Shown in pieces: positions 6,745 to 21,492 of a DNA stretch of 64,000 bases (position 1 is its first letter; the number at the start of each line of letters is the position of its first letter). The position numbers were made by a program, and so were the translations under genes. The notes under the pieces are model-generated. The model searched no databases. It was given only the letters and a program-made list of their open reading frames with translations, and had not been told where the DNA came from. Origin of the DNA: Escherichia phage UB; sequence record MH383160; one strand, 5' to 3'.

Positions 6745-6766
6745 GTGTTGTTAGTACTGCAAGTTA

Positions 6767-7669: not shown

Positions 7670-7852
7670 TTATTTTTTGGAAAGTTTACGCATTAATTCT
7701 ACGCTTTCTTGTGAACGTTTTGCTACCTGGCAAGCTGTATGGGTAGTAAACATTTTTGTATAGTCTGACGCTTTGCCACCGAACCGAGCGGCACGTTCAC
7801 GGGCACTTGGAACTAATACTATTTCTTTCTTGCAGATAGTGCACTTAGCCAT
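7670..7852 (-). CDS. hypothetical small basic protein (60 aa)
   Basis: ORF; promoter plus hairpin cassette upstream, near-identical to that of the neighbouring gene. Confidence 0.5.
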   Translation of the reverse strand: MAKCTICKKEIVLVPSARERAARFGGKASDYTKMFTTHTACQVAKRSQESVELMRKLSKK

Positions 7853-7939
7853 TTTTATTTCTCTCTTTTAGTTAGGAGGGGAACCATTCCCCTCGCTTGA
7901 TGTAAACTATTATACAGTACTAAGATACTTTGTCAATAC

Positions 7940-8215
7940 TTAATTATTGTAAATGTCGTGAATAGTGATAAAGTTTTTACGACCGTAAACCTGCAAATCA
8001 GTATCAATAAAGTGCTTATCTAGTACATCCTCGACGCTTAACGCGGTGTCGTGGATATCTTCGTAGAATTGAGGATCTACAATCTTGCTTAAGTCATCCG
8101 GCGTTAACTTATCATTTAACCATTGAACCGCCTGGATATCTGCTTCACGTTTCCAGTCTTCCAGGTTAGTAGTCAGTACTTGCTCGATTTCGTTAGCTGT
8201 CAGTAGAATCCGCAT
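7940..8215 (-). CDS. hypothetical acidic protein (91 aa)
   Basis: ORF; promoter cassette upstream. Confidence 0.5.
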   Translation of the reverse strand: MRILLTANEIEQVLTTNLEDWKREADIQAVQWLNDKLTPDDLSKIVDPQFYEDIHDTALSVEDVLDKHFIDTDLQVYGRKNFITIHDIYNN

Positions 8216-8438
8216 TTTTATGTTTCCTTATCAGTGGTTGATGTAAGTATTATACTCTTTTACTTTCTATTGTCAAACTATTTTATCAGGGGAGGTTTTC
8301 TTATGTCTTACTCCTGGACTACTTAACGGGGTTACTTGTTTCGTTCCCCGTCCTGATGTAAAACATTATACTTGATTCTAAGTACAATGCAAGTACTTTT
8401 TAAAAATAGTTTTCAGTACTAGCCACCAGCATATAATA

Positions 8439-8521
8439 GATACATTTATGCACCCGGTGGGCTGAATTGTTTCTATGCGTATATAATAGCAAAGGGACTG
8501 ACCGGAGTCAATCCCTTTTTC
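8439..8521 (-). repeat. About 85-bp intergenic repeat, copy 3
   Basis: Direct comparison with 2915..2997. Confidence 0.6.
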
Positions 8522-8955
8522 AAATATTTTTAAACTTCTTTCGGGTTGCGATATGTGATAGCGTTCGGGTACATTTGTTTAATGTTATTCCATGCCTGGT
8601 TAACATTGTAACCACTTGAGCGAATCAGTTGGTTACTACCGACACCTTGAAACACTACTTCGAATAAGAATTCTTTCATGCTTTCACCTCGCGATCTGCT
8701 TTACCTTTACGCCAGGACATTACTAATTGTTCGCGTTGCCATAAGTCGAGTGATACAAAAAGTTTTGCGGTATCACTTTTAGGATACTCTCCAGTAGTAC
8801 CTAACCGATAAAACAGATCTTTCAGTACTGATAATTCTACTTGAATCATTTTATTACTCCTGATTGCGTTAATACTTCTACAATTGCATGAATGATCATA
8901 AGTACAGCTAAAACAATAATCATCGGATTCATTTGCATAAGCTGTACTCCTTCTA

Positions 8956-9168
8956 TTAATCTTTCAGCCAATGATCTTGAATGAATTTTTCACAGAATCC
9001 CTGTTTCATGGATTCTAACAGGCGTTCGCGGTGAGCGGCGGCATATTGCTCAGTACTATGCGTTACGCCAGGCTGATAACGTGATACCCCATCCGGTCCG
9101 ATGTATTGTACATCCCACGGTTTTTCGTTAGTATCAGACCATTTACGAACGATTAGTTGACCTTGCAT
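8956..9168 (-). CDS. hypothetical protein (70 aa)
   Basis: ORF; promoter plus hairpin cassette and AGAGGAAAG SD upstream. Confidence 0.55.
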   Translation of the reverse strand: MQGQLIVRKWSDTNEKPWDVQYIGPDGVSRYQPGVTHSTEQYAAAHRERLLESMKQGFCEKFIQDHWLKD

Positions 9169-9251
9169 TTTTCTTTCCTCTCAGTGGGGAGAATCATTTC
9201 TCCCCTTCATGTAAACTATTATACAGTACTGGGTTGCATTGTCAATAGTTT

Positions 9252-9575
9252 TTATTCACCTTGTTTGAATTTAGTTTTCTGCATTGATTCCATGATTGCA
9301 ACCAATACGCCGTGGATCTCGCTTAACGCGGAATCACTAAAAGCATTAATGAATAGTCGATCATTCTCGCGAATATTTTTAATGTACTTTTCAGCAGTAG
9401 TTGCGAATTCATTCAACGGTAGATCAAATGCTTTATCCCATGATGGATGGCGTAATTGTAACAGTACTGGATTATCACGATCACCAGGGGAAAACGTACC
9501 AGTGATGAAACATACGCCCGGAATACTTTCGAACTGGCAACGGACTTCCTTTGTGATAGTAGTATGAATGTACAT
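9252..9575 (-). CDS. hypothetical protein (107 aa)
   Basis: ORF; GAGGATAA SD upstream; co-transcribed with 9603..9791. Confidence 0.5.
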   Translation of the reverse strand: MYIHTTITKEVRCQFESIPGVCFITGTFSPGDRDNPVLLQLRHPSWDKAFDLPLNEFATTAEKYIKNIRENDRLFINAFSDSALSEIHGVLVAIMESMQKTKFKQGE

Positions 9576-9602
9576 TTATTGTTATCCTCTATTAAATTAA
9601 TA

Positions 9603-9791
9603 TTACAGTTTATGAATCAATTCTTTATCTAAGCGATAGCGTACATTATTAATAGTAACGGCATTGTTTTTAATGCTACGCTGTACAGGTCCACCAGCAA
9701 TAACAAATGTTGCTTTATTGCCCCGAACAATGATAGCACTTCCAGGATTACCGAAATCATCTTGTACTAAAATACTTGATAAGTTTTCCAT
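9603..9791 (-). CDS. hypothetical protein (62 aa)
   Basis: ORF; promoter plus hairpin cassette upstream. Confidence 0.5.
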   Translation of the reverse strand: MENLSSILVQDDFGNPGSAIIVRGNKATFVIAGGPVQRSIKNNAVTINNVRYRLDKELIHKL

Positions 9792-9870
9792 TTTTTATTT
9801 CCTCTTAGTAGGGGAAGATGTTTCCCCTTGATGCAAGTACTATAACAGTACTGAAAACTAAATGCAAGTA

Positions 9871-10227
9871 CTATGATAAAATCATGATAGGATATTCACT
9901 ATCGATCAGTACCTCGAATCCGAAACCTTCGTACCATTCTTTAAGATTAAAGGCGTTATCTTCTCCCGTATCGCATTCTAAAATGATACAATCTGAATCA
10001 TCGGCGGCATCAATAAAGGCATTCATTAATTCGTTACCTTCACCATTGCCCCGACTATCAGGATCAACATAAAGAGAATCAATAAACGCTACACGGTCAT
10101 AATCAAGATCCGGTGCAATGATTCCACGTTTAACAAACCAGTACTGCAATTGTGCTACTTTGCCCTGTACTTGATAGCCAGTGATCTCGCCATTGTCAGT
10201 AGTACGCGTGATATGTTGTATTCCCAT
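9871..10227 (-). CDS. putative GNAT-family N-acetyltransferase (118 aa)
   Basis: VDPDSRGNGEGNELMNA resembles the acetyl-CoA-binding motif A (Q/R-x-x-G-x-G/A) of GNAT enzymes; size fits a minimal GNAT fold. Confidence 0.45.
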   Translation of the reverse strand: MGIQHITRTTDNGEITGYQVQGKVAQLQYWFVKRGIIAPDLDYDRVAFIDSLYVDPDSRGNGEGNELMNAFIDAADDSDCIILECDTGEDNAFNLKEWYEGFGFEVLIDSEYPIMILS

Positions 10228-10290
10228 GATTTCAATCCTCAGTTAAGATATAAAATATTATAAACTATCTTTCAGTACTGTCAATACTTT

Positions 10291-10548
10291 TTATCTCATA
10301 GATCTATGCCAACAATTACGCGGATCTCTTTTAAAAGTACTATCATGATCCTCCTGGCAAGTAATACAATACATGCACCCTATAACGGCCTGGCGTCGAT
10401 TCTCAGGAATTTTATCGCCGCAGTCGAGGCAATGTACCAGTGATTCTCTTTGTGCGTTAATTTGCTTTCTAGCGTGGTTAACGGCGGCCTGAATCACTGC
10501 GTTAATCTCGTCTTGTTCGGCCCCATCTTTCGCGAATCCTACAGCCAT
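10291..10548 (-). CDS. DksA/TraR-family C4 zinc-finger protein (85 aa)
   Basis: C-x2-C-x17-C-x2-C (CLDCGDKIPENRRQAVIGCMYCITC) with RRQA, typical of TraR/DksA C4-type fingers. Confidence 0.6.
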   Translation of the reverse strand: MAVGFAKDGAEQDEINAVIQAAVNHARKQINAQRESLVHCLDCGDKIPENRRQAVIGCMYCITCQEDHDSTFKRDPRNCWHRSMR

Positions 10549-10879
10549 TATTTTAACCTCATTATAAAAATACTATAGTACTGTAATGCGACAATAATAT
10601 TACTTGTTCTTACTTTTTCCAATCCACATGATACCACATATTCATCCCCATATGTGCGGAACGATACACCATGAAAATTTTTATACACTTGCACTACTAA
10701 TCATAACCTTTCGTCTAACCAACTGCATAGAATTATACTACTTTACGCAAATTGATCAAGTATTGATCAGATCATTTTTTGATCAATATTATACAGTTAC
10801 ATTTGTGCACCCTATGGGTTAGTGACGTTCTCGTCTTGATGTAAGTATTATGCCAGTACTGGATGATATTGTCAATAGT

Positions 10880-11077
10880 TTATTTTAATTTTTTTCTGTC
10901 ATTGATTAATGCTTTCAGTACTATACTAATGATTTGCAATGATTCATCAATGACTATAAAATTATTTTCTTTCATTAGATGATAGTTACCATTGATTGTA
11001 TATTCTAAGGAGTACTGTTTACGTTTAATTTTTGATAATGTTTCTATTTGTTTTTGTACTGATTTCATGCTAATCAT
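10880..11077 (-). CDS. hypothetical protein (65 aa)
   Basis: ORF; very AT-rich; start context weak. Confidence 0.4.
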   Translation of the reverse strand: MISMKSVQKQIETLSKIKRKQYSLEYTINGNYHLMKENNFIVIDESLQIISIVLKALINDRKKLK

Positions 11078-11688
11078 TGTTAAACGTCCTGTAACGCATT
11101 CTAACGAGATAAACGGTTGAGTACTGGCATTGTATAGGGTAATGAATTAAAGCCCACCAGCGTTAACCAGTGGGCTATAATCTTACATCTTGCGGATAAT
11201 CTTAACAGTATCTTTCACCGATTTACCGTCTTGCTGACATTGCTCGATCATTGCGTATTGTTCTGCGGTCAGATCCTCGCCAGTTTTTGCCAGTACTGCG
11301 TCGATGAATGAATCCAGTGCGATCATTTTGTTTCTCTCTTAGGTTAAGTTAACTACTGTTGATAAAACTTATTATACAGTACTATCAAACTATGTCAATA
11401 ACTTTAATAGTACTGGTAATATATTTTAGCGGTAGTCGTCGTATGCTTTATTCACCTGGCGAATGTAACTTTCAAAGGCTTCGTCTACCGTTTCATACTC
11501 CCGAACATAATCACCATAGGAAACTACATACATACCTTTTTGATCTTCAAACGTCATGATGATAGAATCCAGACCAACGATTTCAGTTTTTGCGATGATA
11601 GCCATTTTTTAATTCCTTAGTAGTGTAGTTGATAAAACTTATTATGCCAGTACTATCAAACTATGTCAATAGCACTGTGATAATATTT

Positions 11689-11901
11689 TTAGTTAATAAT
11701 AGTCAGTGTAAAATTGTAATCCCCTGCCTGGTATAGTACTTTATCGCCGAACGTGCCGACACGTTTCATATTGCAATAGATACCCATAACACTTTTTACA
11801 TCTTTGATATTCCGAACGCCTGTAATATCTTTATTAAAATAATCGTGGTCAGAAAATAAAACTTGTTTTGCATTTTTCAGTACAGTGCGGATATTAGCCA
11901 T
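11689..11901 (-). CDS. hypothetical protein (70 aa)
   Basis: ORF; promoter plus hairpin cassette upstream. Confidence 0.5.
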   Translation of the reverse strand: MANIRTVLKNAKQVLFSDHDYFNKDITGVRNIKDVKSVMGIYCNMKRVGTFGDKVLYQAGDYNFTLTIIN

Positions 11902-11994
11902 TTTGTTTTCTCTCTGTTAGTGGGGAGAACTATTCTCCCCTTGATGTAAACTATTATACAGTACTATAATCTATTGTCAAACTATTTTTTTATA

Positions 11995-12336
11995 TTATTC
12001 GAAATCTTCTGGACCGGACTGATAATCATCTTCACCGTATGCACTTTCTAACCGCTCACCAGTGTAATCATCAGTTAAGCTATCATCCTCATAGTTCACG
12101 TCTACGCCTGTGATGTAAAACTGGCTATCGTCTGGATCATTGAAATTAATTTTTTGGATGTTTACAATAACTGTATTGATGCCCAGGACACCGCCATCAG
12201 CCGTTACAAAGTACTGATAGTTTTCACAACCGCCTGAATTGAAACCGTAATTAATTTCGGCCCGACCATCATTTAAACGCAGTGCCTGGGCAATGATTTC
12301 ATTTTCAAAGTTAGATTGAGCAATTGAGATAGTCAT
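11995..12336 (-). CDS. hypothetical acidic protein (113 aa)
   Basis: ORF; promoter plus hairpin cassette and AAGGAAAC SD upstream. Confidence 0.55.
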   Translation of the reverse strand: MTISIAQSNFENEIIAQALRLNDGRAEINYGFNSGGCENYQYFVTADGGVLGINTVIVNIQKINFNDPDDSQFYITGVDVNYEDDSLTDDYTGERLESAYGEDDYQSGPEDFE

Positions 12337-12460
12337 GATTCGTTTCCTTATTACCAGGGGAAACCGTTTCCCCTTGCGATGTAAAACATTATACGCTTAT
12401 TGAGATAGTTTGCAAGTACTTTTTAAAAATAGTTTTCAGTACTCAAACATTATACAATAG

Positions 12461-12546
12461 ATACACTCCTGCACCCTGTGGGCTAGTGAGCTATCTCTCA
12501 ATGAATATATAATAGCAAACTGGCTGACCGAAGTCAACCACTTTTT
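12461..12546 (-). repeat. About 85-bp intergenic repeat, copy 4 (hairpin variant GGCTGACCGAAGTCAACC)
   Basis: Direct comparison; the hairpin resembles the type found in the 44-59 kb region. Confidence 0.55.
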
Positions 12547-12769
12547 CATTTATTTTTAGCTTTTAGAATCGCCGCCTTTCGCGTCATGCCTTGCTTGATG
12601 TACTCATTTACTTTCGCTTTTTTAGCGTTTACCTTGTCTGCTTTCGTTTTAGGAGTACTGTAAATTATACCGTTAGGATTCATTTAAATCACCATAAAGA
12701 ATAGATAGGTTACTAACAATGCCGCGATCATTGCACCGACCAGGGCCGAACTGTAATAAGCTAATGATT

Positions 12770-12922
12770 TCATTTTTTAGCCTGAAAATAATGTTTAATT
12801 TGAGCGGCGGTCAGTGCACAATTACGCAGGAAGTTTTCTGTATAACTGCGTCGAGTACTGAAAGAAAATTGACCTTTACCGTTCCCGATAGTAACATCAA
12901 ACCGAGCATTATATTGTTTCAT
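12770..12922 (-). CDS. hypothetical small protein (50 aa)
   Basis: Start moved to MKQYNARF (GGAGA SD); the track's first Met is encoded by the hairpin loop. Confidence 0.45.
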   Translation of the reverse strand: MKQYNARFDVTIGNGKGQFSFSTRRSYTENFLRNCALTAAQIKHYFQAKK

Positions 12923-13219
12923 TTTGTTTCTCCTGTTCTTGGGGAGAATCATTTCTCCCCTTCATGTAAACTATTATACAGTACTAAAAACTAATTGCAA
13001 GTATTATTTTTTAGATTTACGTAAACTTTCTACCATCTCAGGAGTAAGCCCCAGCGGGTAGGAAACCACTTCATCCACAAAACGCAAAGGGAATACCCCA
13101 TCTAAAGTTGAACGTGCTTTCTTATTAGTACTCTTTTTTGATGCTTTCATTTCATATTCCTTAATTAGTGGGGAGAACTATTTCTCCACTTCATGTAAAC
13201 TATTATACAGTACTAAAAA

Positions 13220-13429
13220 CTAATTGCAAGTATTATTTTCTAAAAAATGTTTGTATGCTGAATCAACCACTCTTTCGATAACATACGCTAACGGCACGTA
13301 TCCAACTACATGACTACAATAAAAAGGACTACGATTAGAATCATCGTATGCAAATACTTTTTCAGGATCTGCATCAATCACATACATATTAACCTTTAAG
13401 ATGTCGATCTTATCCTGTACAGTAAGCAT
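13220..13429 (-). CDS. hypothetical protein (69 aa)
   Basis: ORF; co-transcribed with 13435..13707. Confidence 0.5.
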   Translation of the reverse strand: MLTVQDKIDILKVNMYVIDADPEKVFAYDDSNRSPFYCSHVVGYVPLAYVIERVVDSAYKHFLENNTCN

Positions 13430-13434
13430 ATTAA

Positions 13435-13707
13435 TTAACCTTTTAAGTACTGGCTTAAGTAGTCTTTTTGATCTTCGGTGATTGCAGTCATCTTCCCTAG
13501 TACTGGGTTGATGATATAATCCCCTGTAACGTCCTGTGACGCATTCTCAGGGTGTTTAACGGCTGGGGTAGCCATAGCCATTGCCTGGACTTGTTCGACG
13601 CTGTAACGCTCATAAAGGCGGCATTCTTCCGGTGTTAACATAGCATCAGTACGCTTCATCGGTTTAATGATGCTTTCGATCTCATTCAGTACTTGATTAA
13701 CGTTCAT
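13435..13707 (-). CDS. hypothetical protein (90 aa)
   Basis: ORF immediately downstream of 13759..14028. Confidence 0.5.
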   Translation of the reverse strand: MNVNQVLNEIESIIKPMKRTDAMLTPEECRLYERYSVEQVQAMAMATPAVKHPENASQDVTGDYIINPVLGKMTAITEDQKDYLSQYLKG

Positions 13708-13758
13708 GGTATAATCCCCAATATAAGCGGCCTAAAACGACCGCTAACGATGTTTTGA

Positions 13759-14028
13759 TTAATAGGTGTAAGGTTGACGCTCAAACAATGATTGCACGTT
13801 GTACGCCCCGCTAATGGGCTTTGCTGGCAAATCGATTTTATATTGTTCACGCTTAAAGATAATAAAACGGCAATTGTTTTTAACATCAAAATTGATTGAA
13901 CGTTCCAGGAGTTTTCCATCGTGCACAAATACAAGATAACCGCTTGGTACTTGTTTTGTAGTACTGGTTGCAACCATAGACCGACGAACATGAGTACCTG
14001 CATCGATTAAAGTACTGATATTTTTCAT
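13759..14028 (-). CDS. hypothetical protein (89 aa)
   Basis: AGGAAA SD and promoter upstream; preferred over the overlapping frame 13704..14003, which has neither. Confidence 0.5.
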   Translation of the reverse strand: MKNISTLIDAGTHVRRSMVATSTTKQVPSGYLVFVHDGKLLERSINFDVKNNCRFIIFKREQYKIDLPAKPISGAYNVQSLFERQPYTY

Positions 14029-14336
14029 TTTAGTTTCCTTAGTTGTCTTGATAAAATCTATTATGCCAGTACTATCAAACTATGTCAATAGTACTGTGAT
14101 AATATTTTTACTTACTTTTTGCTTTCTTAATTGCTTCCACCTGGTCGGCCCATTCTTTACCCCATACTTGTAAATTATAATGGTACTGGCAAAGAGCAAC
14201 GCCCCGCTTTAAACCAGTAATAGATTTTTTACCACATTGACAAGTTTTCATATTAGTTTCCTTGTAGTGGGGAGAATCATTTCTCCCCTTGATGTAATGT
14301 ATTATACTTTATTCGATTTACTTTGCAAGTACTTTT

Positions 14337-14564
14337 TTAATTTAATTCATCCAGGCAAAGGATACGCTCAACGCCCAAATCAGTTAAACTAATGGTCGGC
14401 ACTTGATAGGTTTCAATGTATGCTACAGTTGCCCACTGACCGAACTCATTAACGGCCCAGGTATTCATTGCATTTTGCAATTCCGCACCTGCCTTGTTAG
14501 TAATGACTGCAACTACTTGTTCGTTGCCAGTAGTACCAGATACGCGAGTAATGATAATAGCCAT
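14337..14564 (-). CDS. hypothetical protein (75 aa)
   Basis: Start moved to MAIIITRVSG, downstream of the 5'-UTR hairpin. Confidence 0.5.
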   Translation of the reverse strand: MAIIITRVSGTTGNEQVVAVITNKAGAELQNAMNTWAVNEFGQWATVAYIETYQVPTISLTDLGVERILCLDELN

Positions 14565-14801
14565 TGTTTTGATTCCTTTGATTTGGAAGGAGAACCGTTT
14601 TCCCCTCTCGATGTAAAACATTATACGCTAATCTATTAATCATGCAAGTACTTTTTATTACTTTTTGCAAAATACTTTAAACGCTCTCAATCGCATTCTA
14701 ACGACCTTAACGCCACCAGCTAGGGCGATGTATCAGATAATCAGTTTAATGCGTTAGAATCGATTATAGGCGGTGCTAGTGGACTGGAATACTATAGACA
14801 C

Positions 14802-14828
14802 AAAAAAGCCCACTGTTTAAGGTGGGCT
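14802..14828 (-). terminator. Rho-independent terminator
   Basis: Minus strand AGCCCACCttaaacaGTGGGCT plus TTTTTTG, 3' of 14850..15332; an identical hairpin sits at 15536..15564. Confidence 0.6.
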
Positions 14829-14849
14829 ATTGATTCAGTACTTTAATTG

Positions 14850-15332
14850 TTATGCTTCAACTTTGCGATGAGCTTCGATCCATTCCTCGCGAGTCATACC
14901 GCTTTCTTTGATAGCGTCCAGTACTACCGCAATGCAGTTACCGCGTACAGGAATCAAATGTTCTTCACCGTTATCAAGTACTACAGTAACACGTTCTTGA
15001 ATCCATTTTTTAGGTTTAGATTCTGGCTTATCTTCACCATACTTAACCGCCAGGGCTTTATGTGCCATTTCTACAACTACTTCCAGATCCAATCCAGACA
15101 CTGCCGCCTGGATACTGTCAATTGTTGCTTGCAGTTCGGCTTCACGGGCTTTTTTCTGTTCTTCCAGTTCTGCTACCTTTTTGGCTTGTAATTCTTTCGC
15201 TTCACTGTACGCAATGTTAAAATTGTTGCGTACTGCTTTCATGGTATCGTTATCCAGGTCAGCCAGCAATTCAGCAGCAATAACAGTATCGTTTGAAATC
15301 AGTGCTTTCAGGAATGATTTTACATTAGCCAT
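14850..15332 (-). CDS. hypothetical coiled-coil protein (160 aa)
   Basis: Start at MANVKSF; Ala/Glu/Lys-rich helical middle; hairpin terminator downstream at 14802..14828. Confidence 0.55.
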   Translation of the reverse strand: MANVKSFLKALISNDTVIAAELLADLDNDTMKAVRNNFNIAYSEAKELQAKKVAELEEQKKAREAELQATIDSIQAAVSGLDLEVVVEMAHKALAVKYGEDKPESKPKKWIQERVTVVLDNGEEHLIPVRGNCIAVVLDAIKESGMTREEWIEAHRKVEA

Positions 15333-15535
15333 TTTATAAATCCTCAATTAAAGTTTAGTTTACGTTTATTAGTGTATCAAAGTTTTTTTGACGTGTCCAG
15401 TTTTTCGTTCGACTTACTGGCGGTCTACTTAGTGCTCCCCGTCTTGATGTAATACATTCTACGCCTTTTTGCGGTATTGTCAACTACTTTTTTAAAACTA
15501 TTTTCAAAGTATCTCAGTACTACAATACTACAAAA

Positions 15536-15564
15536 ATAAAAAAGCCCACTGTTTAAGGTGGGCT
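15536..15564 (-). terminator. Rho-independent terminator
   Basis: Same hairpin as 14802..14828, followed by a T run on the minus strand, 3' of 15582..15881. Confidence 0.6.
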
Positions 15565-15581
15565 AGTGATTCAGTACTATA

Positions 15582-15881
15582 TTATAAACAGTTAATTACT
15601 CCGGTGTGCGTTACTTTCTCAGTATCCATAACCGTGACCGATCCACGCTTAGTACTTGCATCATAATAAATTGTTGTGCTACCGTTTTCGTCTTCTTCAT
15701 GGAACGGGCCGTTTTTAAATGCTTCTGGTTGGATCTCTAAATCCTTTAAAACAATCTCGCCCGTACTTTCATTGGTCATCGCAACAGTGCACTGAATGAA
15801 TTTTTCACTACTCACATCTAACGACGCATTAACAGCGAAAGAGGAAACAGATAAAGCCAGGGCGATGATTGCAATTTTCAT
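15582..15881 (-). CDS. putative secreted protein with signal peptide (99 aa)
   Basis: N-terminus MKIAIIALALSVSSFAVNA is a typical Sec signal peptide; terminator downstream. Confidence 0.55.
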   Translation of the reverse strand: MKIAIIALALSVSSFAVNASLDVSSEKFIQCTVAMTNESTGEIVLKDLEIQPEAFKNGPFHEEDENGSTTIYYDASTKRGSVTVMDTEKVTHTGVINCL

Positions 15882-15965
15882 TTGATTATCCTTAGTTACT
15901 AGGGGGAACCTCTCCCCCGTGCTATGTAAAATATTATACAGTACTAAAAACTAATTGCAAGTACT

Positions 15966-16202
15966 TTATGATTTTTTATAAAACATTTCGGCAGTGATAT
16001 TTTTACCCGTTGGTTGTACTTTATCCAGAATTTTTTGATGCCCAGGCCGTCCAAATGAATATGATCCGTAAACCGTAAACCAGTAGTTACCCTCAGTGTT
16101 TACATGTACAGCACAATAGGGAACGCCCCGCGATTCATCACTAGTAAAGTGTGCTACCGTTCCCGTTACATTCGAAGTCGTTGATTTGATTTGTTCAAGC
16201 AT
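15966..16202 (-). CDS. hypothetical protein (78 aa)
   Basis: ORF; promoter plus hairpin cassette upstream. Confidence 0.5.
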   Translation of the reverse strand: MLEQIKSTTSNVTGTVAHFTSDESRGVPYCAVHVNTEGNYWFTVYGSYSFGRPGHQKILDKVQPTGKNITAEMFYKKS

Positions 16203-16445
16203 TTTCTTATTCCTTAGTTACCAGGGGAACCGCTCCCCCTATGCAAAACATTATACGCGTTTAAAAACTAATAGCAAGTATTTTAATAAAAAGTATTTGA
16301 AAAATAATTGTTGACAACTGCATCCAGTACTGGCATAATACTTATATAAAGACGATACAGTCACTAACCCACAGGGTGCCGAGATCCGTCTATTAAATGA
16401 TTCAGTACTGAAAAAGTAACGGGGAGTTATTATCTCCCCGCGTTG

Positions 16446-16667
16446 TTATTTGGTAAGGTATAAACAGAAGTCACCTTTATTTGCTACGCCGCCAGTGTAA
16501 CGCGATGAATAGTTAGAAATATCTTGTACTTCTGCTATTACCAGTGTATCATCATTCATTTCGTCGCAGAAGCAAACGGCTGGATCTTTAACGCCGATAT
16601 TGTCGGCATGTTCCCGCATAGATTTAACCAGTGCTTCCAGTTGAGAAAGAGTAGTGATATTAGCCAT
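16446..16667 (-). CDS. hypothetical protein (73 aa)
   Basis: Start moved to MANITTL, downstream of the hairpin. Confidence 0.5.
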   Translation of the reverse strand: MANITTLSQLEALVKSMREHADNIGVKDPAVCFCDEMNDDTLVIAEVQDISNYSSRYTGGVANKGDFCLYLTK

Positions 16668-16752
16668 TGTATTTTCCTCATTACCAGGGAGAACCATTTC
16701 TCCCCTCTATGTAAAACATTATACAGTACTAAAAACTAATTGCAAGTACTTT

Positions 16753-16941
16753 TTAATTAAATTCCATAAAATCATTCTCAACGTGCACAACAATCTGATT
16801 ATTTTTAAAGTCCGCAGAAAACTCAATACAATCATATACTGCTTTTTCTGTTACCATACTATGAGTACCAATCGGATTAATAGGGGATTGAATTGTTTCA
16901 ATCTCGTTACCTTGTTCATTAACAATTAAAATATTAAACAT
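16753..16941 (-). CDS. hypothetical protein (62 aa)
   Basis: ORF; GGAGTAAAAG SD and TATAAT-containing promoter upstream. Confidence 0.5.
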   Translation of the reverse strand: MFNILIVNEQGNEIETIQSPINPIGTHSMVTEKAVYDCIEFSADFKNNQIVVHVENDFMEFN

Positions 16942-16996
16942 AACTTTTACTCCTGATAGTGTTTACCTGATATAAAGTATTATACGCCTTTATTGC

Positions 16997-17203
16997 TTAG
17001 TGTCCAGTACTTTTTAAAACATAATCAAAGACACTTCTCACATCATTGATCATCGCCTGGCGGTTAGCAGGTAAAGCATCAGGATCACCACTATCCCAAG
17101 CCTGTATGAAGCCTCCAAGCTCTGAATAAACTTTATTACGCAATCCGATTAACTGTAATTCTTTTTCTTCAAGCTCTTTGATACGTTCAATTAAATCACT
17201 CAT
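16997..17203 (-). CDS. hypothetical protein (68 aa)
   Basis: Start moved to MSDLIERIKEL with AAGGA SD. Confidence 0.45.
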   Translation of the reverse strand: MSDLIERIKELEEKELQLIGLRNKVYSELGGFIQAWDSGDPDALPANRQAMINDVRSVFDYVLKSTGH

Positions 17204-17220
17204 TAGATAATCCTTAGTAC

Positions 17221-17508
17221 TTAACTGTAAGATCCGCAACGGTCGCAGTAGTGCCCGTCTTCCTCGTCATCGTCAACGAATTGCCCGACGAAATGATCTA
17301 CTTTCGCTTTCAGGTTATTATAATCGTTTTCTACTTCCTTTAATCGTTCCTGGTAGTATTCCAGTGCCTCAAGATACGCCGCCTCAGCAGTTTTTGCACG
17401 CATAGCTAAATTCATGCCACGCGATTCATCATAAAGCCAATAACCATCAGTGCACTGGCTAATAGATAATGACTTGCTTAATACTGTATAGCTAATTACT
17501 TTGCTCAT
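17221..17508 (-). CDS. hypothetical protein with C-terminal CxxC (95 aa)
   Basis: Start moved to MSKVISY with GAGGAA SD; C-terminal HYCDRCGSYS. Confidence 0.5.
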   Translation of the reverse strand: MSKVISYTVLSKSLSISQCTDGYWLYDESRGMNLAMRAKTAEAAYLEALEYYQERLKEVENDYNNLKAKVDHFVGQFVDDDEEDGHYCDRCGSYS

Positions 17509-17563
17509 TAGATATTCCTCAGTAAAGGCGGGAACCATTCCCCGCCATTATCTCAGTACTAAA

Positions 17564-18175
17564 TTAATATGCGATTGATTCTACTACGCCATCAATAACA
17601 TTGAATTGATACTCGTTACCCTCGATCAGTGCCGTGATGTTCTCAGTAGTGAATTGATCCTCATATGCATTCTCTAAATCACGGTACAACTTGCGGGATA
17701 ATTCACGAATAGTTTCAGTGAGTAGTTCCTCAAGCTCATTAACTAACGTTTCTTGTTTTGCGGTTAAATCAGTGTAAGCCGATTCAATGTACCCGCTTAC
17801 AGTATTCTCATGCGAGTAGTGGGAGTGAGAACGCTTTACACTCATCGGCAAATCATCTTCATTCAGCAGGTGACGGATTGAGCGATACTTAGTTAATGCT
17901 CTTACCTTGCGTAAAAACTTCACTGCGTCAACGTGGTCAGTACTGATTGATGCACCGTCACCTTGCGACCAAAAACCACTGAATCGTAAATCTGCGTCAT
18001 TAATGCCATATTCCGGTAGTACTGTTTCTTTATAGTATTCAATTTCACTTTCAGAAAAATAATCATCGTTTAAGTTTTTTTCACGTTCCCGAACCAGTTC
18101 GATAGCTGACGTTTGTTGTTCTGCGTTCAATTCAGAAAAAGCCATAACATAAGTAGTAGTAGTGATAGTTTTCAT
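17564..18175 (-). CDS. hypothetical acidic protein (203 aa)
   Basis: ORF; promoter upstream; strongly acidic. Confidence 0.55.
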   Translation of the reverse strand: MKTITTTTYVMAFSELNAEQQTSAIELVREREKNLNDDYFSESEIEYYKETVLPEYGINDADLRFSGFWSQGDGASISTDHVDAVKFLRKVRALTKYRSIRHLLNEDDLPMSVKRSHSHYSHENTVSGYIESAYTDLTAKQETLVNELEELLTETIRELSRKLYRDLENAYEDQFTTENITALIEGNEYQFNVIDGVVESIAY

Positions 18176-18476
18176 TTTGTAACCCTCATTCAGTAGTTGA
18201 TGTAAGTATTATACGCTTTTAAAAACAATTGTCAAACTATTTTATCAGGGGAGTTTTTCGTGTGCCTTACTCCTGGGCTACTTAACGGGGAGTTACTTAT
18301 TTCGTCCCCCGTCCTGATGTAAAACATTATACGCCTTTAAACATAGTTTGCAAGTACTTTTTGAAAAATAGTTTTTAATCACTTTTATATAGATACACTC
18401 CCGCACCCTATGGGCTATCGCCTTGTGTCCGGCTTGTAAGTATTATCTCACTAAGCCGGATAATGGTCAAGTACTT

Positions 18477-18743
18477 TTATTCAAGTACTGCTATCTTTTT
18501 AGTACTGTACACAGTAACACGGTTGCCCTTGCGGTCGTGCTTTATTTCTACCACTCGACGCGATACACTATCAGGACTTTTTAACGCCGATAACCAGTAC
18601 TGTAAGGATCTGGCTGTACTTTGCTTTACTACCGCCCAACGTTTACCACGTTCCGATTGCACGCCCATATCTTTAAACGTTGCCCCGTCCTGGCGAGCGG
18701 CGATCCGAGCTTGTTCACGCGTTGCAAAGTATATAATATTCAT
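18477..18743 (-). CDS. hypothetical protein, paralog of 6767..7171 (88 aa)
   Basis: Start moved to MNIIYFATREQ; shares FATRE..AR and HDRKGNRVTVYS with 6767..7171. Confidence 0.5.
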   Translation of the reverse strand: MNIIYFATREQARIAARQDGATFKDMGVQSERGKRWAVVKQSTARSLQYWLSALKSPDSVSRRVVEIKHDRKGNRVTVYSTKKIAVLE

Positions 18744-18825
18744 GCTGTTATCCCATCGTTGATGTATGAATAAAATCCTATTATAAAGTACTATCACCGT
18801 GCAATAGTACTTTAAATAAATTCTA

Positions 18826-19065
18826 TTACATTCCAACCATTGCAGCACGGATCGCCGTAGTGCTATATTTGAATCCGTCCGGCGTTTTATCTTGTCCAGT
18901 CTGTTCTAAAAATAGCATCATATGACGGGCCGCATCATTGCGATTAGTGTTAGCGGCAATAAAGTCCTGGGCCAACCGGTATAATGATTCATCGTTATTA
19001 ATCCAAAGGCTTACATTCCATTGAGTTTTGTTAGCGTGACCTAAGAACATTTTTGATTTAGCCAT
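18826..19065 (-). CDS. hypothetical protein (79 aa)
   Basis: ORF; promoter plus hairpin cassette upstream. Confidence 0.5.
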   Translation of the reverse strand: MAKSKMFLGHANKTQWNVSLWINNDESLYRLAQDFIAANTNRNDAARHMMLFLEQTGQDKTPDGFKYSTTAIRAAMVGM

Positions 19066-19163
19066 TTTTAAATCCTCGTTTGATTTGAGGCGGGAATAGT
19101 TCCCGCTCTCGATGTAAAGTATTATACGCTATTTGTTAGTACTGTCAAACTACTTTTTAAAAC

Positions 19164-19526
19164 TTATTCGTAAATCTTGCCACTGTCAGCCCATACCAGG
19201 AAACGAGGCATATTATCCCATGCATCTTGTTTTAAATTTAAACCGTGTAATACTTCTGTACTTTCCATTCCTGGTACTGGTTTACTATACACCGCGAACA
19301 ATTCACCCATATACTGATAAGCCATCGTTAAATCACTTGCGATCATCTTATGGATCATCGCATCAAGCATCACGGTAGCGGCGTATTGTTCACGCTTAAG
19401 CGGTAACATTGCAATAAGTTCCCGATAAGCTGAAATGTGAATTTTTACCGTTTCTGCCGGAAGATCTTTCATCTCGTCGCGGAAGTTAACCAGGTTAGCA
19501 ATAATTTTATTGATTTGAGTAGCCAT
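19164..19526 (-). CDS. hypothetical protein (120 aa)
   Basis: Start moved to MATQINKII, downstream of the hairpin. Confidence 0.5.
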   Translation of the reverse strand: MATQINKIIANLVNFRDEMKDLPAETVKIHISAYRELIAMLPLKREQYAATVMLDAMIHKMIASDLTMAYQYMGELFAVYSKPVPGMESTEVLHGLNLKQDAWDNMPRFLVWADSGKIYE

Positions 19527-20299
19527 CGTTTTAATCTCTCTTAAAGTGTAGCGGGAAGTGTTCCCGCTCTCGATGTAAAACATTCTACACCTTTCCCAAT
19601 ACTTTGCAAGTACTTTCTACAAATACTTTTAAAATAGTTTTCTTTCTATATAGGAGTACTATCATTCAGTACTGCTACACTAGAATCAATCAACCAAATC
19701 ACTACTATACCCCATAAAACGGCCTCAGACGCATTCTAACGCATTAATACACCTAAGCTATACATTTGCACCGCCACCAGCTAACCAGGGCTTTACGATG
19801 CGTTTAAACGCGTTAAATTATTTTCAATTATTTTGTTTTTTGCTATTGACTCAGTACTAAAAAAGCGTATAATTACTACATAGACGCGAGAAAGCGGATA
19901 TCCCAAGGGGTGCGGAATTGTGCCCAAAATTCAAGATATAAAAAAAAGGATACACTCCCGCACCCTAGCAGGTCAAAGCACTTTCTCAGTACTGAATCAT
20001 AGTACCATAGTACGCCCCAGGATGGCAAGCAAATTAATTAAAACTTTTTTCATCCAGGGTATTGCTTTATTTTTCCAGTACTGTATAATAGTTTCATCAA
20101 GTCGAGAAAGACTATAGCCCACCGGGTGCATAGTTACGCCCAAAATTTCAGTACTAGATTATTTTTTAAAAATATTCATCCAGGCGGTTGACATTGCCCC
20201 CAGTTTATTAGATAATGATTCCAGATTCAGAAAAATCTAACTCCAGATACTGCGGGGAAACTATCCCCACGCGGTAGGGGAACTATTGGAAAAAAACAA

Positions 20300-20470
20300 A
20301 ATAAAATTTTGATTTAGCCGTCTATACTTCCAGACGTGTAACCATCTAGCCGTTTAGCCGTCCAAACGTCTAGCCATACAGCCATCCAGAAATCTAGCCG
20401 TTTAGCCGTCTAGATAGATAGCCATCTTTACTTCCAGACTTCTGGAGGGCTAGACATATCTACGTCCAAA
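20300..20470. repeat. Iteron-like short direct repeats
   Basis: TCTAGCCGTTTAGCCGTC twice, TAGCCAT twice, TACTTCCAGAC twice, CGCCCAAAAT three times, within a 1.9-kb stretch free of ORFs. Confidence 0.5.
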
Positions 20471-21492
20471 ATCCATCCAGGGTAACTACGCCCAAAATCC
20501 GTCAGTACTATACCATAGATCTATCTTTTGAAAGGGAGTATTCAGTACTGCCACAATAGCCCTCACTGTTACTGTAGGAGGATGAAGACTATCATGTAGT
20601 ACTGAATACTGTTAGAGGGAACCCACCAGCTTGTGCTGGTGGCATAATGCTTTAGATTAAAATCAGTACTAATACCATTCTGTTAATATCAGTACTGTTA
20701 TTACGATTTTCATATGAGGTTCAAAAAGATGTACCACCACAGGAGGAACTATCTTTTCTGTACTGTCTCACGACAGGAGGTAGAGTAAATGAATTGTTCG
20801 CAGCAACTCATCTCTCTATGTAGAACATTATACAGTACTGAATCATAATGTCAATAGCTTTCTTTCATTATTCAGTACTGATATTCTTGAGAACTACCCG
20901 ACTACAAACATCATTATATCCCACAAATCATAAACGTCCCAACGTAAATTTCAACTTTCGAAGATCCAACTTTTATTTCATAGGTACTCCAAAATTTTTA
21001 GGATCGAGATTTAGGATGGAGTACTAACCAACTTTTTGCTGGAGCCTCAAGGGGTAATGGAATTTTACCCCGAAGGGTAAAGGGGTAATTGAAATTAAGG
21101 TGAAAGTAATAATTCAGTACTAATCATTGCGTGATTACTTTTGATTACATTTGATGTAATTTGAAAAATGGAAAAGGAGCTTGGAAACTACAAAGTACGG
21201 CAGACTTCCTCTGCCTACTTAGTGGCATATTAGTACTGAATCATTCACACACATTTCCGTGCATTCTTGAGCAATCTTGTCTATACTAATCAGTACTGAA
21301 TCATATATAATCATTCTGTGATTCTACGGTGCTCATATAAATGTTTATATATGATTACTTATGACTACCTATGATTACGGGGTTTAGCCTGGGGAGAATC
21401 CTAGTGATCGCATTTGTCCAGGCTGAATTTTAACAATTCGCCTGTACATAAAGGTTGTTCACTAGGAGCTTCCCCTGTCTACTTGTGTTTAA

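What the first reader, a model, noticed from the sequence alone, without database searches (positions are those of the whole stretch)
19584..21492. 1.9-kb ORF-free, repeat-rich island in a gene-dense genome
No ORF of 60 aa or more on either strand, in contrast to 100-300 bp spacing elsewhere. It holds iteron-like direct repeats (TCTAGCCGTTTAGCCGTC twice, TAGCCAT, TACTTCCAGAC, CGCCCAAAAT three times), five copies of AGTACTGAATCAT, several hairpins (CCACCAGCttgtGCTGGTGG) and at least one PeSL-like promoter (about 20815-20860) with no gene behind it. Candidates are a replication origin, a packaging or terminus site, or a cluster of small non-coding RNAs.
Basis: partly seen in the sequence, partly recalled or inferred. 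Interest (0 to 1): 0.65.

Follow-up and report, generated by a model that had tools for sequence, protein, structure and literature searches.

The report
Non-coding leader at phage terminal-repeat end
The gene-free island is the conserved non-coding control region at one end of a giant coliphage's 20-kb terminal repeat: it contains the physical end of the virus chromosome, a pair of host recombination (Chi) signals, strong early promoters and, unexpectedly, a 14-unit array of binding sites for the host methionine repressor MetJ.

Summary
The window is an Asteriusvirus (PBECO4/121Q/G17-like jumbo coliphage). The island is real: no conserved ORF, yet 90-100% conserved across ten relatives. The termini mapped in two close relatives (G17; fEgEco12 by PhageTerm plus restriction digests) both align to window 1510 and 21219. 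The direct terminal repeat (DTR) is therefore 1510-21219, and one physical genome end lies inside the island (1,636 bp in the DTR, 273 bp outside). This mirrors phage T5's untranslated "Repeat Region 3". It passes the published MetJ operator matrix as 14 consecutive metboxes, the only such site in 64 kb. Similar arrays occur in T7-like, T5-like and other jumbo phages of MetJ-bearing hosts; Klebsiella relatives carry Fur-box-like arrays at that position. AGTACT is part of the phage's early promoter class and is over-represented window-wide. Phased TGATTAC repeats flank the terminus. An origin gets little support: no DnaA boxes, and the GC-skew minimum is explained by a neighbouring gene family. 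Small RNAs remain possible. Protein binding is inferred throughout.

The parts
1510..21219 (.). Direct terminal repeat (DTR), 19,710 bp in this genome. The island forms its last 1,636 bp.
   Evidence: The first base of G17 and the last base of fEgEco12 align to 1510. The last base of G17 and the first base of fEgEco12 align to 21219. Termini came from read coverage in G17 and from PhageTerm plus restriction digests in fEgEco12.
19582..19609 (-). Promoter-like site (TTGCAA-16-TAGAAT, preceded by AAAGTAC) for the first DTR gene (19583<-19164)
   Evidence: The GCAAGTACTTT context recurs 10 times in the window and in the fENko-Kae01 and BF leaders.
19846..19873 (+). P1: near-consensus sigma70 promoter (TTGACT-16-TATAAT) facing the DTR end, with no ORF behind it
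   Evidence: Conserved in Asteriusvirus, XbC2, fENko-Kae01, BF, Yen9-04 and pEa12.
19885..19966 (+). Conserved leader after P1: mini-hairpin CGC-GAGAAA-GCG (19885-19896), then a long helix GGGGTGCGG (19907-19915) / CCGCACCC (19958-19965) with a variable apex
   Evidence: Stem variants are CGC/GCG, GTC/GAC, CGA/TCG and CGG/CCG. 5 of 18 consensus pairs show a compensatory change.
20062..20112 (+). P2 (TTGCTT-16-TATAAT, with CAGTACTG abutting the -10), followed by mini-hairpin GTC-GAGAAA-GAC (20101-20112)
20188..20216 (+). P3 (TTGACA-17-GATAAT). Its transcript would reach the metbox array about 90 nt downstream.
   Evidence: The same promoter-leader-array order is seen in fENko-Kae01 and Muenster, where the array is Fur-box-like.
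20316..20451 (.). Tandem 8-bp array matching the MetJ operator (metbox, AGACGTCT). 14 consecutive passing boxes at 20316-20427; 16 of 17 units pass through 20451.
   Evidence: Published weight matrix and thresholds applied: 98.8 bits, the only qualifying site in 64 kb, none in a shuffled window. The column consensus is AGACGTCT. Positive control on E. coli metJ/metB/metF. Present in all 9 Asteriusvirus relatives.
20623..20642 (.). Inverted pair of Chi sites (CCACCAGC-ttgt-GCTGGTGG). The plus-strand Chi at 20635-20642 lies about 0.58 kb from the DTR end and is oriented to act on RecBCD entering there. G17 annotates it as a terminator.
   Evidence: Orientation rule. The pair is conserved in G17, 121Q, JNE01, PBECO4, SD-2_S15, fEgEco12 and in the different-genus fENko-Kae01. 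G17 terminator annotation.
20827..20854 (-). Perfect early promoter (TTGACA-TTATGATTCAGTACTG-TATAAT) 365-392 bp from the DTR end, pointing inward toward the array and the DTR genes
   Evidence: It has the same architecture as about 15 other DTR promoters.
20954..21043 (.). Almost invariant block containing GGTACTCC...GATTTAGGATGGAGTACT. Function unknown.
   Evidence: 97-100% identity across 10 genomes. The same motifs occur near the ends of fENko-Kae01 (twice) and BF.
21132..21165 (+). Phased (10-bp) TGATTAC repeats, 54-87 nt inside the terminus. Candidate terminase recognition element.
   Evidence: family D3. 4 of the 5 plus-strand TGATTAC in the window lie at 21132, 21142, 21352 and 21372. 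The block is conserved.
21199..21219 (.). Hairpin GGCAGA-cttcc-TCTGCC followed by TACT; the last base of the DTR (physical genome end) is 21219
   Evidence: 97% conserved. fENko-Kae01 also ends in a terminal hairpin.
21342..21378 (+). Second phased TGATTAC/TGACTAC/TGATTAC block, 123-159 nt outside the DTR
   Evidence: It is fully conserved, whereas 21224-21313 between it and the terminus is only about 74% identical.
21385..21481 (.). Inverted repeat (23-nt arms, 51-nt spacer) just downstream of the last minus-strand gene of the unique region. Possible terminator.
   Evidence: I6.

Best explanation
The island is the non-coding, cis-acting leader at the 'B' end of the phage's roughly 20-kb direct terminal repeat (DTR). 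It straddles the point where the packaged chromosome ends (21219|21220). It is a composite of sites read by host and phage machinery.

(1) The terminal cleavage point sits just after a small hairpin. It lies between two conserved blocks of 10-bp-phased TGATTAC repeats. I infer these blocks are where terminase assembles.

(2) A back-to-back pair of Chi sites lies 0.58 kb in from the end. Nine further Chi sites in the DTR face the other end. I infer that RecBCD entering either free end is quickly converted from nuclease to RecA loader. That would promote DTR-by-DTR recombination, meaning circularisation, concatemers and recombination-primed replication.

(3) Consensus early sigma70 promoters are present. 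One points inward toward the roughly 40-70 small DTR genes. Three point outward with no ORF; two of these (P1, P2) are followed by a conserved structured leader, and the third (P3) reads into the array.

(4) An array of 14-16 MetJ operator boxes lies between the inward promoter and the genes, and about 90 nt downstream of outward promoter P3. I infer that it is coated by MetJ-SAM. It could act as a sponge for the repressor once the DNA is amplified, or as a SAM-dependent roadblock or gate on transcription across the leader.

Shown: the position of the termini (by homology), the motifs, their statistics and their conservation. Inferred: every protein-DNA interaction and its consequence.
For: Identity and conservation.
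- The window is an Asteriusvirus: 41 phage records match, 34 of them over at least 80% of the island.
- The island is 0.9-1.0 identical across 10 genomes, as conserved as the flanking genes. Its ORFs are not conserved.

Termini.
- The record ends of G17 and fEgEco12 both map to 1510 and 21219.
- The methods behind those ends are given.
- The 21,525-bp DTR of vB_Ec-M-J, combined with its coordinates, gives about 21228.
- The same layout holds in other genera. Muenster (DTR 1-20030) and fENko-Kae01 (DTR 1-19736) are gene-free for their first 1.3 kb or so (fENko-Kae01 has one doubtful 46-aa call). Serratia BF is gene-free for 1.8 kb. In all three the genes then run inward.

MetJ array.
- 14 in-phase boxes, 98.8 bits, unique in 64 kb, scored with the published matrix.
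- Positive control.
- Arrays are present in PGT2, AhSzq-1, Pontus, BF, GAP32, Yen9-04, pEa12 and XbC2.
- MetJ exists only in the orders that host these phages, with one exception (see evidence against).

Chi.
- 14 octamers against about 0.4 expected. CCACCAGC is the top octamer of its composition class. 6 of those 10 CCACCAGC copies are intergenic.
- Orientation rule and precedents in P1 and LLS.

Promoters. TGATTAC clustering. T5 analogue (1.2 kb untranslated, overrunning the repeat by 270 bp).
Against: - No read-end or coverage data exist for this very phage. The terminus is transferred from relatives that are 84-91% identical over the aligned region.
- No binding data exist for MetJ, RecBCD or terminase.
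- No unit of the array is a perfect AGACGTCT. The shared AGCCGTCT-AAACGTCT dimer could mean a different binder that reads 16 bp.
- XbC2 carries an array but is recorded on Xanthomonas, which lacks MetJ.
- A4 lacks the Chi pair and CMSTMSU keeps one Chi. Muenster and BF have none.
- The TGATTAC blocks are not seen in other genera.
- The A end (1510) shows no similar motif.
- T5-type phages degrade host DNA early, which argues against a simple sponge role for their arrays.
Confidence: 0.7

Rival explanations
1. It is a replication origin. Either the 8-bp repeats are iterons for an initiator, or the gene-less promoters P1-P3 prime replication through an R-loop, as at T4 oriF/oriG.
For: - The cumulative G-C minimum of the window is at 20990, inside the island, with minus-strand genes on both sides.
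- Three strong promoters have no ORF behind them.
- The leader sequence after P1/P2 is conserved.
- The related phage CBB has homologues of 5 of the 8 T4 replisome proteins, and T4 uses promoter-dependent origins.
Against: - The repeats are 8-bp contiguous units. They fit the MetJ matrix and occur in T7-like and T5-like phages with unrelated replication systems.
- There are no DnaA boxes.
- The ten flanking ORFs tested match no replication family.
- The skew flip is accounted for by the 17 small genes at 21.5-25.9 kb. Their G/E/D/V/A residues make up 18% against 27-33% elsewhere, and their third-position skew is -0.35.
Confidence: 0.12
2. It is mainly a cluster of small non-coding RNAs transcribed from P1, P2, P3 and the minus-strand promoter at 20854. 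The conserved sequences would be RNA structures: regulatory sRNAs or put/nut-like antitermination elements.
For: - P1 plus a downstream sequence of about 90 nt is conserved from Asteriusvirus to Eneladusvirus.
- The mini-hairpin N3-GAGAAA-N3' keeps pairing through four different stems.
- RNAalifold finds 18 pairs, 5 of them with compensatory changes.
- No ORF is conserved.
Against: - No Rfam family or tRNA matches.
- The covariation term is small (-1.0 kcal/mol). Most pairs are invariant and the stems are only 3 bp.
- No clean intrinsic terminators follow P1-P3.
- This reading does not explain the terminus, the Chi pair or the metbox array.
Confidence: 0.15
3. It is a T5-type injection-stop signal. 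DNA entry pauses when this region, loaded with host DNA-binding proteins, reaches the envelope, so that only the DTR enters in a first step.
For: - Position and layout match T5 Repeat Region 3: untranslated, repeat-rich, at the inner end of the repeat, and overrunning it by 270 bp against 273 bp here.
- T5-family phages AhSzq-1 and Pontus carry the same metbox arrays next to DnaA boxes.
Against: - There is no sequence similarity to T5 Repeat Region 3 and no DnaA boxes here.
- All DTR genes are transcribed away from the island. This fits the island end entering first (T7-like) rather than last.
- Two-step transfer has not been reported for these phages in the papers read.
Confidence: 0.12
4. 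It encodes small unannotated proteins. Some GenBank records place 5-8 'hypothetical proteins' here.
For: - Automated annotations in SD-2_S15, JP4, E9.1 and others.
- A Shine-Dalgarno-like AGGAGG lies before a 19-codon ORF at 20789-20848.
Against: Every candidate ORF is broken by stops or frameshifts in some relatives. Substitutions show no third-position bias. Curated records (G17, 121Q, PBECO4, phAPEC6, A4) annotate no CDS here.
Confidence: 0.03

Closest known systems
Phage T5 untranslated 'Repeat Region 3' of the left terminal repeat (candidate injection stop signal, iss; Davison, bioRxiv 10.1101/866236)
   Same: - An ORF-free region over 1 kb, packed with repeats and palindromes, at the inner end of a long exact terminal repeat. 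It overruns into unique DNA by 270 bp (here 273 bp).
- It is more conserved than the neighbouring small genes.
- It carries arrays of host-factor sites: DnaA boxes in T5. By my scan, T5's palindromes also match the Fur box at 14-15 of 19 positions.
   Different: - No sequence homology to T5.
- No DnaA or Fur boxes here; a MetJ-type array and a Chi pair instead.
- The repeat is twice as long.
- Gene orientation suggests the island end may lead rather than trail during entry.
Phage T7 left-end leader (terminal repeat, short-repeat arrays SRL, early promoters A1-A3). This comparison rests on my own knowledge of Dunn & Studier 1983.
   Same: A non-coding stretch at a physical end, with short tandem repeat arrays followed by strong host-RNAP promoters pointing inward to early genes. 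The T7-relative PGT2 has the same metbox-type array 43-114 nt from its end.
   Different: T7's own repeats (CCTAAAG type) are not metboxes. T7's terminal repeat is 160 bp, not 20 kb.
Terminally clustered, oriented Chi sites of phage P1 and Chi-rich lambdoid phages such as LLS (Genome Res 2025, PMC12315714)
   Same: The exact E. coli Chi octamer is strongly over-represented, concentrated in or near the terminal repeat, and oriented to be active for RecBCD entering the nearest free end.
   Different: Here both ends are covered. The end-proximal site is an inverted Chi pair that also forms a hairpin. The phage is a virulent jumbo myovirus with a T4-like replisome.
E. coli MetJ operators (metJ/metBL, metF and others; Augustus & Spicer 2011, PMC3228920)
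   Same: Contiguous in-phase 8-bp boxes with the consensus AGACGTCT. Per-box scores (3.2-10.7 bits) fall in the range of the natural boxes scored here (4.5-10.3 bits).
   Different: - 14-16 boxes (up to 28 in AhSzq-1) against 4 boxes in each of the two E. coli operators scored here.
- Not at a met-gene promoter.
- No perfect consensus unit.
- Located in a phage terminal repeat.
PeSL promoter-early stem-loop cassettes of T4-type phages (PMC2839356, PMC4122927)
   Same: A repeated early sigma70 promoter cassette between many small early genes. The promoter at 20854 belongs to this genome's cassette class.
   Different: The consensus is different (TTGACA-N8/9-AGTACTG-TATAAT), and here the cassette has no gene behind it. 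Homology to T4 PeSLs was not tested.

Membership tests
Boundary of a long exact direct terminal repeat (T5/SPO1/Rak2-like type) | Sequence coincides with experimentally mapped physical ends | tested here: met
   The ends of G17 (coverage) and fEgEco12 (PhageTerm plus digests) both align to 21219 and 1510. This is by homology, not measured on this phage.
Boundary of a long exact direct terminal repeat (T5/SPO1/Rak2-like type) | The region is present twice in full-length linear records, about 20 kb from or at an end | tested here: met
   Most records of 366-384 kb (and a few shorter ones) hold two places, and in several the listed place lies about 19-21 kb from a record end. Most records of about 348 kb hold one.
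Boundary of a long exact direct terminal repeat (T5/SPO1/Rak2-like type) | Two-fold read depth and read-start pile-ups in this genome | not testable with these tools
   No reads are available.
T5 Repeat Region 3 / injection stop signal | Untranslated repeat-rich region at the inner end of the terminal repeat, overrunning into unique DNA | tested here: met
   1,636 bp inside and 273 bp outside the repeat. T5 has 1.2 kb with a 270-bp overrun.
T5 Repeat Region 3 / injection stop signal | Paired DnaA boxes in the IRD'-spacer-IRC' arrangement | tested here: not met
   No TTWTNCACA on either strand of the island.
T5 Repeat Region 3 / injection stop signal | Two-step DNA transfer | not testable with these tools
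   Needs infection experiments.
MetJ operator (metbox array) | Two or more contiguous in-phase 8-bp boxes, each at least 1/4 of the consensus score, with a site total at least equal to the consensus (published matrix) | tested here: met
   14 boxes, 98.8 bits, at 20316-20427. No other site in the window and none in a shuffled window. The control finds the metJ/metB and metF operators only.
MetJ operator (metbox array) | Host possesses MetJ | tested here: met
   E. coli is the host. Among the phages read, all with arrays infect Enterobacterales, Vibrionales or Aeromonadales, except XbC2, which is recorded on Xanthomonas.
MetJ operator (metbox array) | Overlaps the promoter of a methionine-regulon gene | tested here: not met
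   The array lies in non-coding phage DNA, about 90 nt downstream of P3 and about 370 nt downstream of the minus-strand promoter.
MetJ operator (metbox array) | SAM-dependent binding by MetJ | not testable with these tools
   Needs a gel shift or ChIP.
Chi recombination hotspot (terminal, oriented cluster) | Exact 5'-GCTGGTGG-3', over-represented, oriented to be active for RecBCD entering the nearest end | tested here: met
   14 octamers against about 0.4 expected. Nine in the DTR face end A and one (20635) faces end B, about 0.58 kb in.
Iteron-type replication origin | Helically phased iterons of about 17-22 bp next to an AT-rich unwinding element and an initiator gene; DnaA boxes | tested here: not met
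   The units are 8 bp and contiguous. There are no DnaA boxes. The flanking ORFs have no family apart from DUF7249.
Iteron-type replication origin | Strand-composition inflection not explained by genes | tested here: inconclusive
   The minimum is at 20990, but the neighbouring gene family has atypical amino-acid and codon-position-3 composition. The whole-genome skew was not examined.
Known RNA families / tRNA | Match to an Rfam covariance model or an ARAGORN tRNA/tmRNA | tested here: not met
   No tRNA in the window. No Rfam match within the island at E up to 1; the single weak match in the scanned stretch lies outside it.

The most novel reading that the evidence does not exclude
Long-terminal-repeat phages of three unrelated families carry interchangeable 'super-operators' for host global regulators in the non-coding leader near a genome end. 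The families are jumbo Rak2-like myoviruses, T5-like Demerecviridae and a T7-like podovirus group. The arrays are 9-28 MetJ boxes in some, Fur-box-like arrays in Klebsiella relatives and T5, and DnaA boxes in T5-like phages.

These arrays are bound by the host proteins during infection. They either reprogramme host regulons by titration (methionine/SAM, iron, initiation control), or act as a metabolite-sensing gate or anchor on the first DNA to enter. If so, they would be the physical basis of the unexplained T5 injection-stop region.
Probability: 0.3. Interest if true: 0.85.

Novelty: new variant of a known kind. Interest (0 to 1): 0.66.

Why it matters
Non-coding regions at the ends of long terminal repeats are known from T5. 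Their function has stayed unresolved since the 1980s, and in jumbo Rak2-like phages they are simply left blank or filled with spurious ORFs.

This analysis places the physical end in the island and explains three of its 'mystery' repeats as sites for defined host machinery:
- Chi for RecBCD;
- metboxes for MetJ;
- a phage-specific sigma70 promoter class.

It also shows that the MetJ-type array recurs in T5-like and T7-like phages and is swapped for Fur-type arrays in Klebsiella relatives. That turns a vague 'repeat region' into concrete experiments using metJ, fur and recBCD hosts and array deletions.

The results bear on four questions: how giant phages protect and recombine their ends, whether they reprogramme host metabolism through DNA decoys, how entry is staged, and how to annotate and engineer these therapeutic-candidate phages correctly.

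Tried and rejected
- tRNA and Rfam scans: nothing in the island.
- Small ORFs: not conserved.
- T5 homology: the T5 Repeat Region 3 sequence was read directly. It has no metbox array and no shared repeats. T5 is therefore a positional analogue only.
- DnaA and Fur boxes in this island: none.
- GC skew as origin evidence: rejected as weak after a codon-position analysis of the adjacent gene family.
- AGTACT as SlmA-binding sites (GTGAGTACTCAC shares the core): the flanks do not fit. G at position -1 is depleted, and most sites match only 7 of 12 positions.
- AGTACT as an island-specific repeat: rejected, since it is window-wide.
- Exact 19-mer from the array in IMG/VR: only 9 loci, mostly the known isolates.
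- Degenerate 5-unit pattern in IMG/VR: dominated by perfect microsatellites in giant-virus bins. Only three T5-sized contigs had heterogeneous arrays, so it is not a usable survey.
It was replaced by the E. coli met-locus positive control.
- A common cut-site motif at the two DTR ends (1510 and 21219): none seen by eye.
- Whole-genome cumulative skew: not attempted, because it would have used most of the remaining region fetches.
Full report
**What the window is.** The island (19584-21492) matches 41 phage records at 80-99% identity. All but one are E. coli or Salmonella jumbo phages of the genus Asteriusvirus, such as PBECO4, 121Q, G17 and phAPEC6. 34 records cover at least 80% of the island. 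Curated records annotate no gene there. Some automated ones insert 3-8 'hypothetical proteins'.

**Checking the observation.**
- The ORF gap is real. A crude ORF tiling leaves only four gaps over 350 bp in the window.
- Two mechanical ORFs exist: 65 aa with a GTG start, and 59 aa with an ATG start. An alignment of ten Asteriusvirus genomes shows neither is conserved. The first is open only here. The second is frameshifted in four genomes, with substitutions spread 16/16/17 over the codon positions. Two micro-ORFs behind Shine-Dalgarno-like sequences are also broken in divergent members.
- The DNA is nonetheless 0.9-1.0 identical across those genomes. That equals or exceeds the flanking genes, and some blocks are invariant (20954-21043, 21404-21433).
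AGTACTGAATCAT has 4 exact copies, not 5. CGCCCAAAAT has 2 exact copies plus variants.
- There is no tRNA, and no Rfam match falls inside the island.

**The island contains a physical genome end.** Several related records are 366-384 kb long and hold the island twice. Two have mapped ends.
- fEgEco12: 20,993-bp direct terminal repeats from PhageTerm, confirmed by restriction digests.

I aligned their record ends to the window. The first base of G17 and the last base of fEgEco12 both align to 1510. The last base of G17 and the first base of fEgEco12 both align to 21219. A third phage, vB_Ec-M-J (21,525-bp repeat), gives about 21228 from the coordinates.

The terminal repeat is therefore 1510-21219. 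The island is its last 1,636 bp plus 273 bp of unique DNA. Conservation is 97% across 21194-21223 and falls to about 74% just past the boundary.

The same layout holds in other genera.
- Klebsiella phage Muenster: repeat 1-20030, first gene at 1304.
- fENko-Kae01: repeat 1-19736, first solid gene at 1296.
- Serratia BF: first gene at 1786.

All three start with a gene-free leader from which genes run inward. fENko-Kae01 and BF even share the terminal sequence GAGAAGATA.

**The closest described analogue.** In T5, 'Repeat Region 3' is 1.2 kb of untranslated repeats and palindromes. It lies mostly in the left terminal repeat, overruns into unique DNA by 270 bp, and is better conserved than the nearby ORFs. 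It is the candidate injection stop signal. The positional match with 273 bp here is striking. However, the T5 sequence itself shares nothing with the island.

**The 'iterons' are MetJ-type operator boxes.**
- A distant BLAST showed that the repeat block (about 20270-20440) hits sequences near the ends or terminal repeats of Eneladusvirus and Mimasvirus jumbo phages. It also hits unrelated phages: Autographiviridae PGT2/phiKT (43-114 nt from the end) and Demerecviridae AhSzq-1, AhSzw-1 and Pontus.
- Written in phase, all of these are contiguous 8-bp units. The column consensus in this window and in BF is AGACGTCT, the MetJ metbox.
- I applied the published information matrix and thresholds of Augustus & Spicer. 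The window has a single run of 14 consecutive passing boxes (20316-20427, 98.8 bits; 16 of 17 units pass through 20451). No other qualifying site exists in 64 kb, and none in a shuffled window.
- The same scan on 5.9 kb of E. coli K-12 finds exactly the metJ/metB and metF operator regions. Each has 4 boxes scoring 4.5-10.3 bits, the same per-box quality as the phage units.
- All nine Asteriusvirus relatives keep 12-15 boxes, split into shorter runs in some. PGT2 has 9, Pontus 15 and AhSzq-1 28.
- MetJ exists only in Enterobacterales, Pasteurellales, Vibrionales, Aeromonadales and Alteromonadales. That fits the hosts, with one exception: XbC2 is recorded on Xanthomonas.
- Muenster and fENko-Kae01 have no metboxes. 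At the same place, downstream of the same promoter, they carry arrays matching the Fur box at 14-16 of 19 positions. T5's palindromes match at 14-15 of 19. AhSzq-1 has metboxes, Fur-like boxes and six DnaA boxes together.
- Caveats: no unit is a perfect AGACGTCT, and an AGCCGTCT-AAACGTCT dimer is shared across families. A different binder is therefore not excluded.
- My literature searches found no paper linking MetJ sites to phage termini. Davison's T5 analysis mentions DnaA boxes only.

**The hairpin is an inverted pair of Chi sites.** CCACCAGC-ttgt-GCTGGTGG (20623-20642) carries the E. coli Chi octamer on both strands.
- The window holds 14 Chi octamers against about 0.4 expected.
- CCACCAGC occurs 10 times. 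The next most frequent octamer of the same composition occurs twice.
- Six of those ten CCACCAGC copies are intergenic, so this is not a coding artefact.
- By the orientation rule, nine DTR sites act on RecBCD entering at end A (the first is 1.36 kb in). The plus-strand site at 20635 acts on RecBCD entering at end B, about 0.58 kb in.
- The pair is conserved in most Asteriusvirus genomes and in the different-genus fENko-Kae01. It is lost in A4 and halved in CMSTMSU.
- Terminally clustered, oriented Chi sites are already known for P1 and Chi-rich lambdoid phages. This part is a new member of a known kind.

**Promoters and AGTACT.**
- AGTACT is the most over-represented hexamer in the window (275 against 22 expected; the next palindrome is 2-fold).
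- It belongs to the phage's early promoter class, TTGACA-N8/9-(C/T)AGTACTG-TATAAT, or it abuts the -35 element.
- 38 sites match the sigma70 consensus at 11 of 12 positions or better. 25 of them lie in the terminal repeat, almost all on the gene (minus) strand.
- The island has three such sites against 0.12 expected:
  - two outward promoters, P1 (19846) and P3 (20188).
- A weaker outward promoter, P2 (20062-20089), is also present.
- P1 and P2 are followed by a leader conserved across five genera. Its mini-hairpin N3-GAGAAA-N3' keeps pairing through four stem variants. After P1 only, a longer helix follows. RNAalifold gives 18 pairs, 5 with compensatory changes, but a small covariation term. 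A small RNA or a put/nut-like element is possible but unproven.

**Around the terminus.**
- The repeat ends four bases after a hairpin (GGCAGA-cttcc-TCTGCC).
- Four of the five plus-strand TGATTAC heptamers in the window lie in two 10-bp-phased blocks. One block is 54-87 nt inside the end and the other is 123-159 nt outside it.
- Both blocks are conserved, while the DNA between the terminus and the outer block is variable.
- I propose them as the terminase recognition elements. This is inference only, and other genera lack them.

**Origin hypothesis.** The cumulative G-C minimum falls at 20990 with minus-strand genes on both sides. The flip is due to 17 tandem small genes at 21.5-25.9 kb.
- Their proteins are Tyr/Asn-rich, and G/E/D/V/A residues make up only 18% against 27-33% elsewhere.
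- Their third-position skew is -0.35.

There are no DnaA boxes and no initiator gene. I rate a classical origin as unlikely. Chi-stimulated, recombination-primed replication from the repeat is a reasonable inference.

**Verdict.** The island is the cis-acting leader at a terminal-repeat end. The kind is known (T5, T7). The content is a new variant: a 14-box MetJ-type super-operator, exchanged for Fur-type arrays in sister genera and shared with T5-like and T7-like phages. It is testable and may bear on the old T5 injection-stop problem.

Noticed in passing
whole window (for example 2845, 4817, 7666, 9245, 11398, 20854, 49923, 61189): AGTACT is 12.7-fold over-represented (275 copies) and is the top hexamer. 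In many early promoters it sits as AGTACTG directly before TATAAT, or as AGTAC fused to TTGAC/TTGCAA. About two thirds of the copies fall inside crude ORF calls, so promoters may not explain them all. Its core equals the SlmA-binding-site core, but the flanks do not fit.
   Followed up: partly
window 2871, 3093, 4672, 8423, 9691, 11154, 14713, 19774 (CCACCAGC on the plus strand): Chi octamers are strongly enriched through the terminal repeat. All are oriented to act on RecBCD entering at the other repeat end (1510), and six of the ten CCACCAGC copies in the window are intergenic.
   Followed up: partly
window 21493-25893: 17 tandem minus-strand genes of about 60-77 aa have an inverted coding-strand GC skew (-0.18 overall, -0.35 at codon position 3). 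Their proteins are Tyr/Asn-rich and poor in Gly/Glu/Asp/Val/Ala. No Pfam family was found for the seven tested.
   Followed up: partly
window 176-1412: Six tandem minus-strand ORFs of 65-72 aa with overlapping stop and start codons lie just outside the other repeat boundary. They look like a paralogous array.
   Followed up: no
window 27133-28222; also 28321, 29561, 30820, 31621, 32843, 35298, 37729: A second ORF-poor gap of 1.09 kb. A repeated intergenic element of about 100 nt, annotated as a terminator region in G17, occurs at seven or more places among the plus-strand genes.
   Followed up: no
window 30866-31621: A Gly-rich plus-strand ORF contains three Chi octamers inside GGTGGTGCTGGTGG-type repeats. 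The local GC skew is +0.37.
   Followed up: no
L017 (Muenster) 2473-3010; L018 (fENko-Kae01) 2067-2350; L010 (T5) 1075-1135; L009 (AhSzq-1) 4521-5560: Fur-box-like sequences (14-16 of 19 matches to GATAATGATAATCATTATC) are clustered in the terminal-repeat leaders of Klebsiella jumbo phages, in T5 Repeat Region 3 palindromes and in AhSzq-1. The T5 paper read here does not describe them as Fur boxes.
   Followed up: partly
L018 and L019, last 12 bases: fENko-Kae01 and Serratia phage BF, from different genera, end with the same sequence ...GAGAAGATA. The BF record start is therefore probably a true physical end.
   Followed up: no
L030 (XbC2) 1797-1925: A phage recorded on Xanthomonas vesicatoria, an order without MetJ, carries an 8+4+2-box metbox array. 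Either the host record or host range is broader than stated, or the array does not need MetJ.
   Followed up: no
L057, L097, L099 (IMG/VR contigs of 118.5, 109.4 and 111.5 kb): Three T5-sized viral contigs carry heterogeneous 9-box arrays with even better metbox scores (7.6-9.8 bits per box).
   Followed up: no
window 20135-20146, 20461-20472, 20487-20498; L018 about 2470; L019 about 2187: The motif (T)AC(G/A)CCCAAAAT brackets the host-factor array in three genera. Its function is unknown.
   Followed up: no
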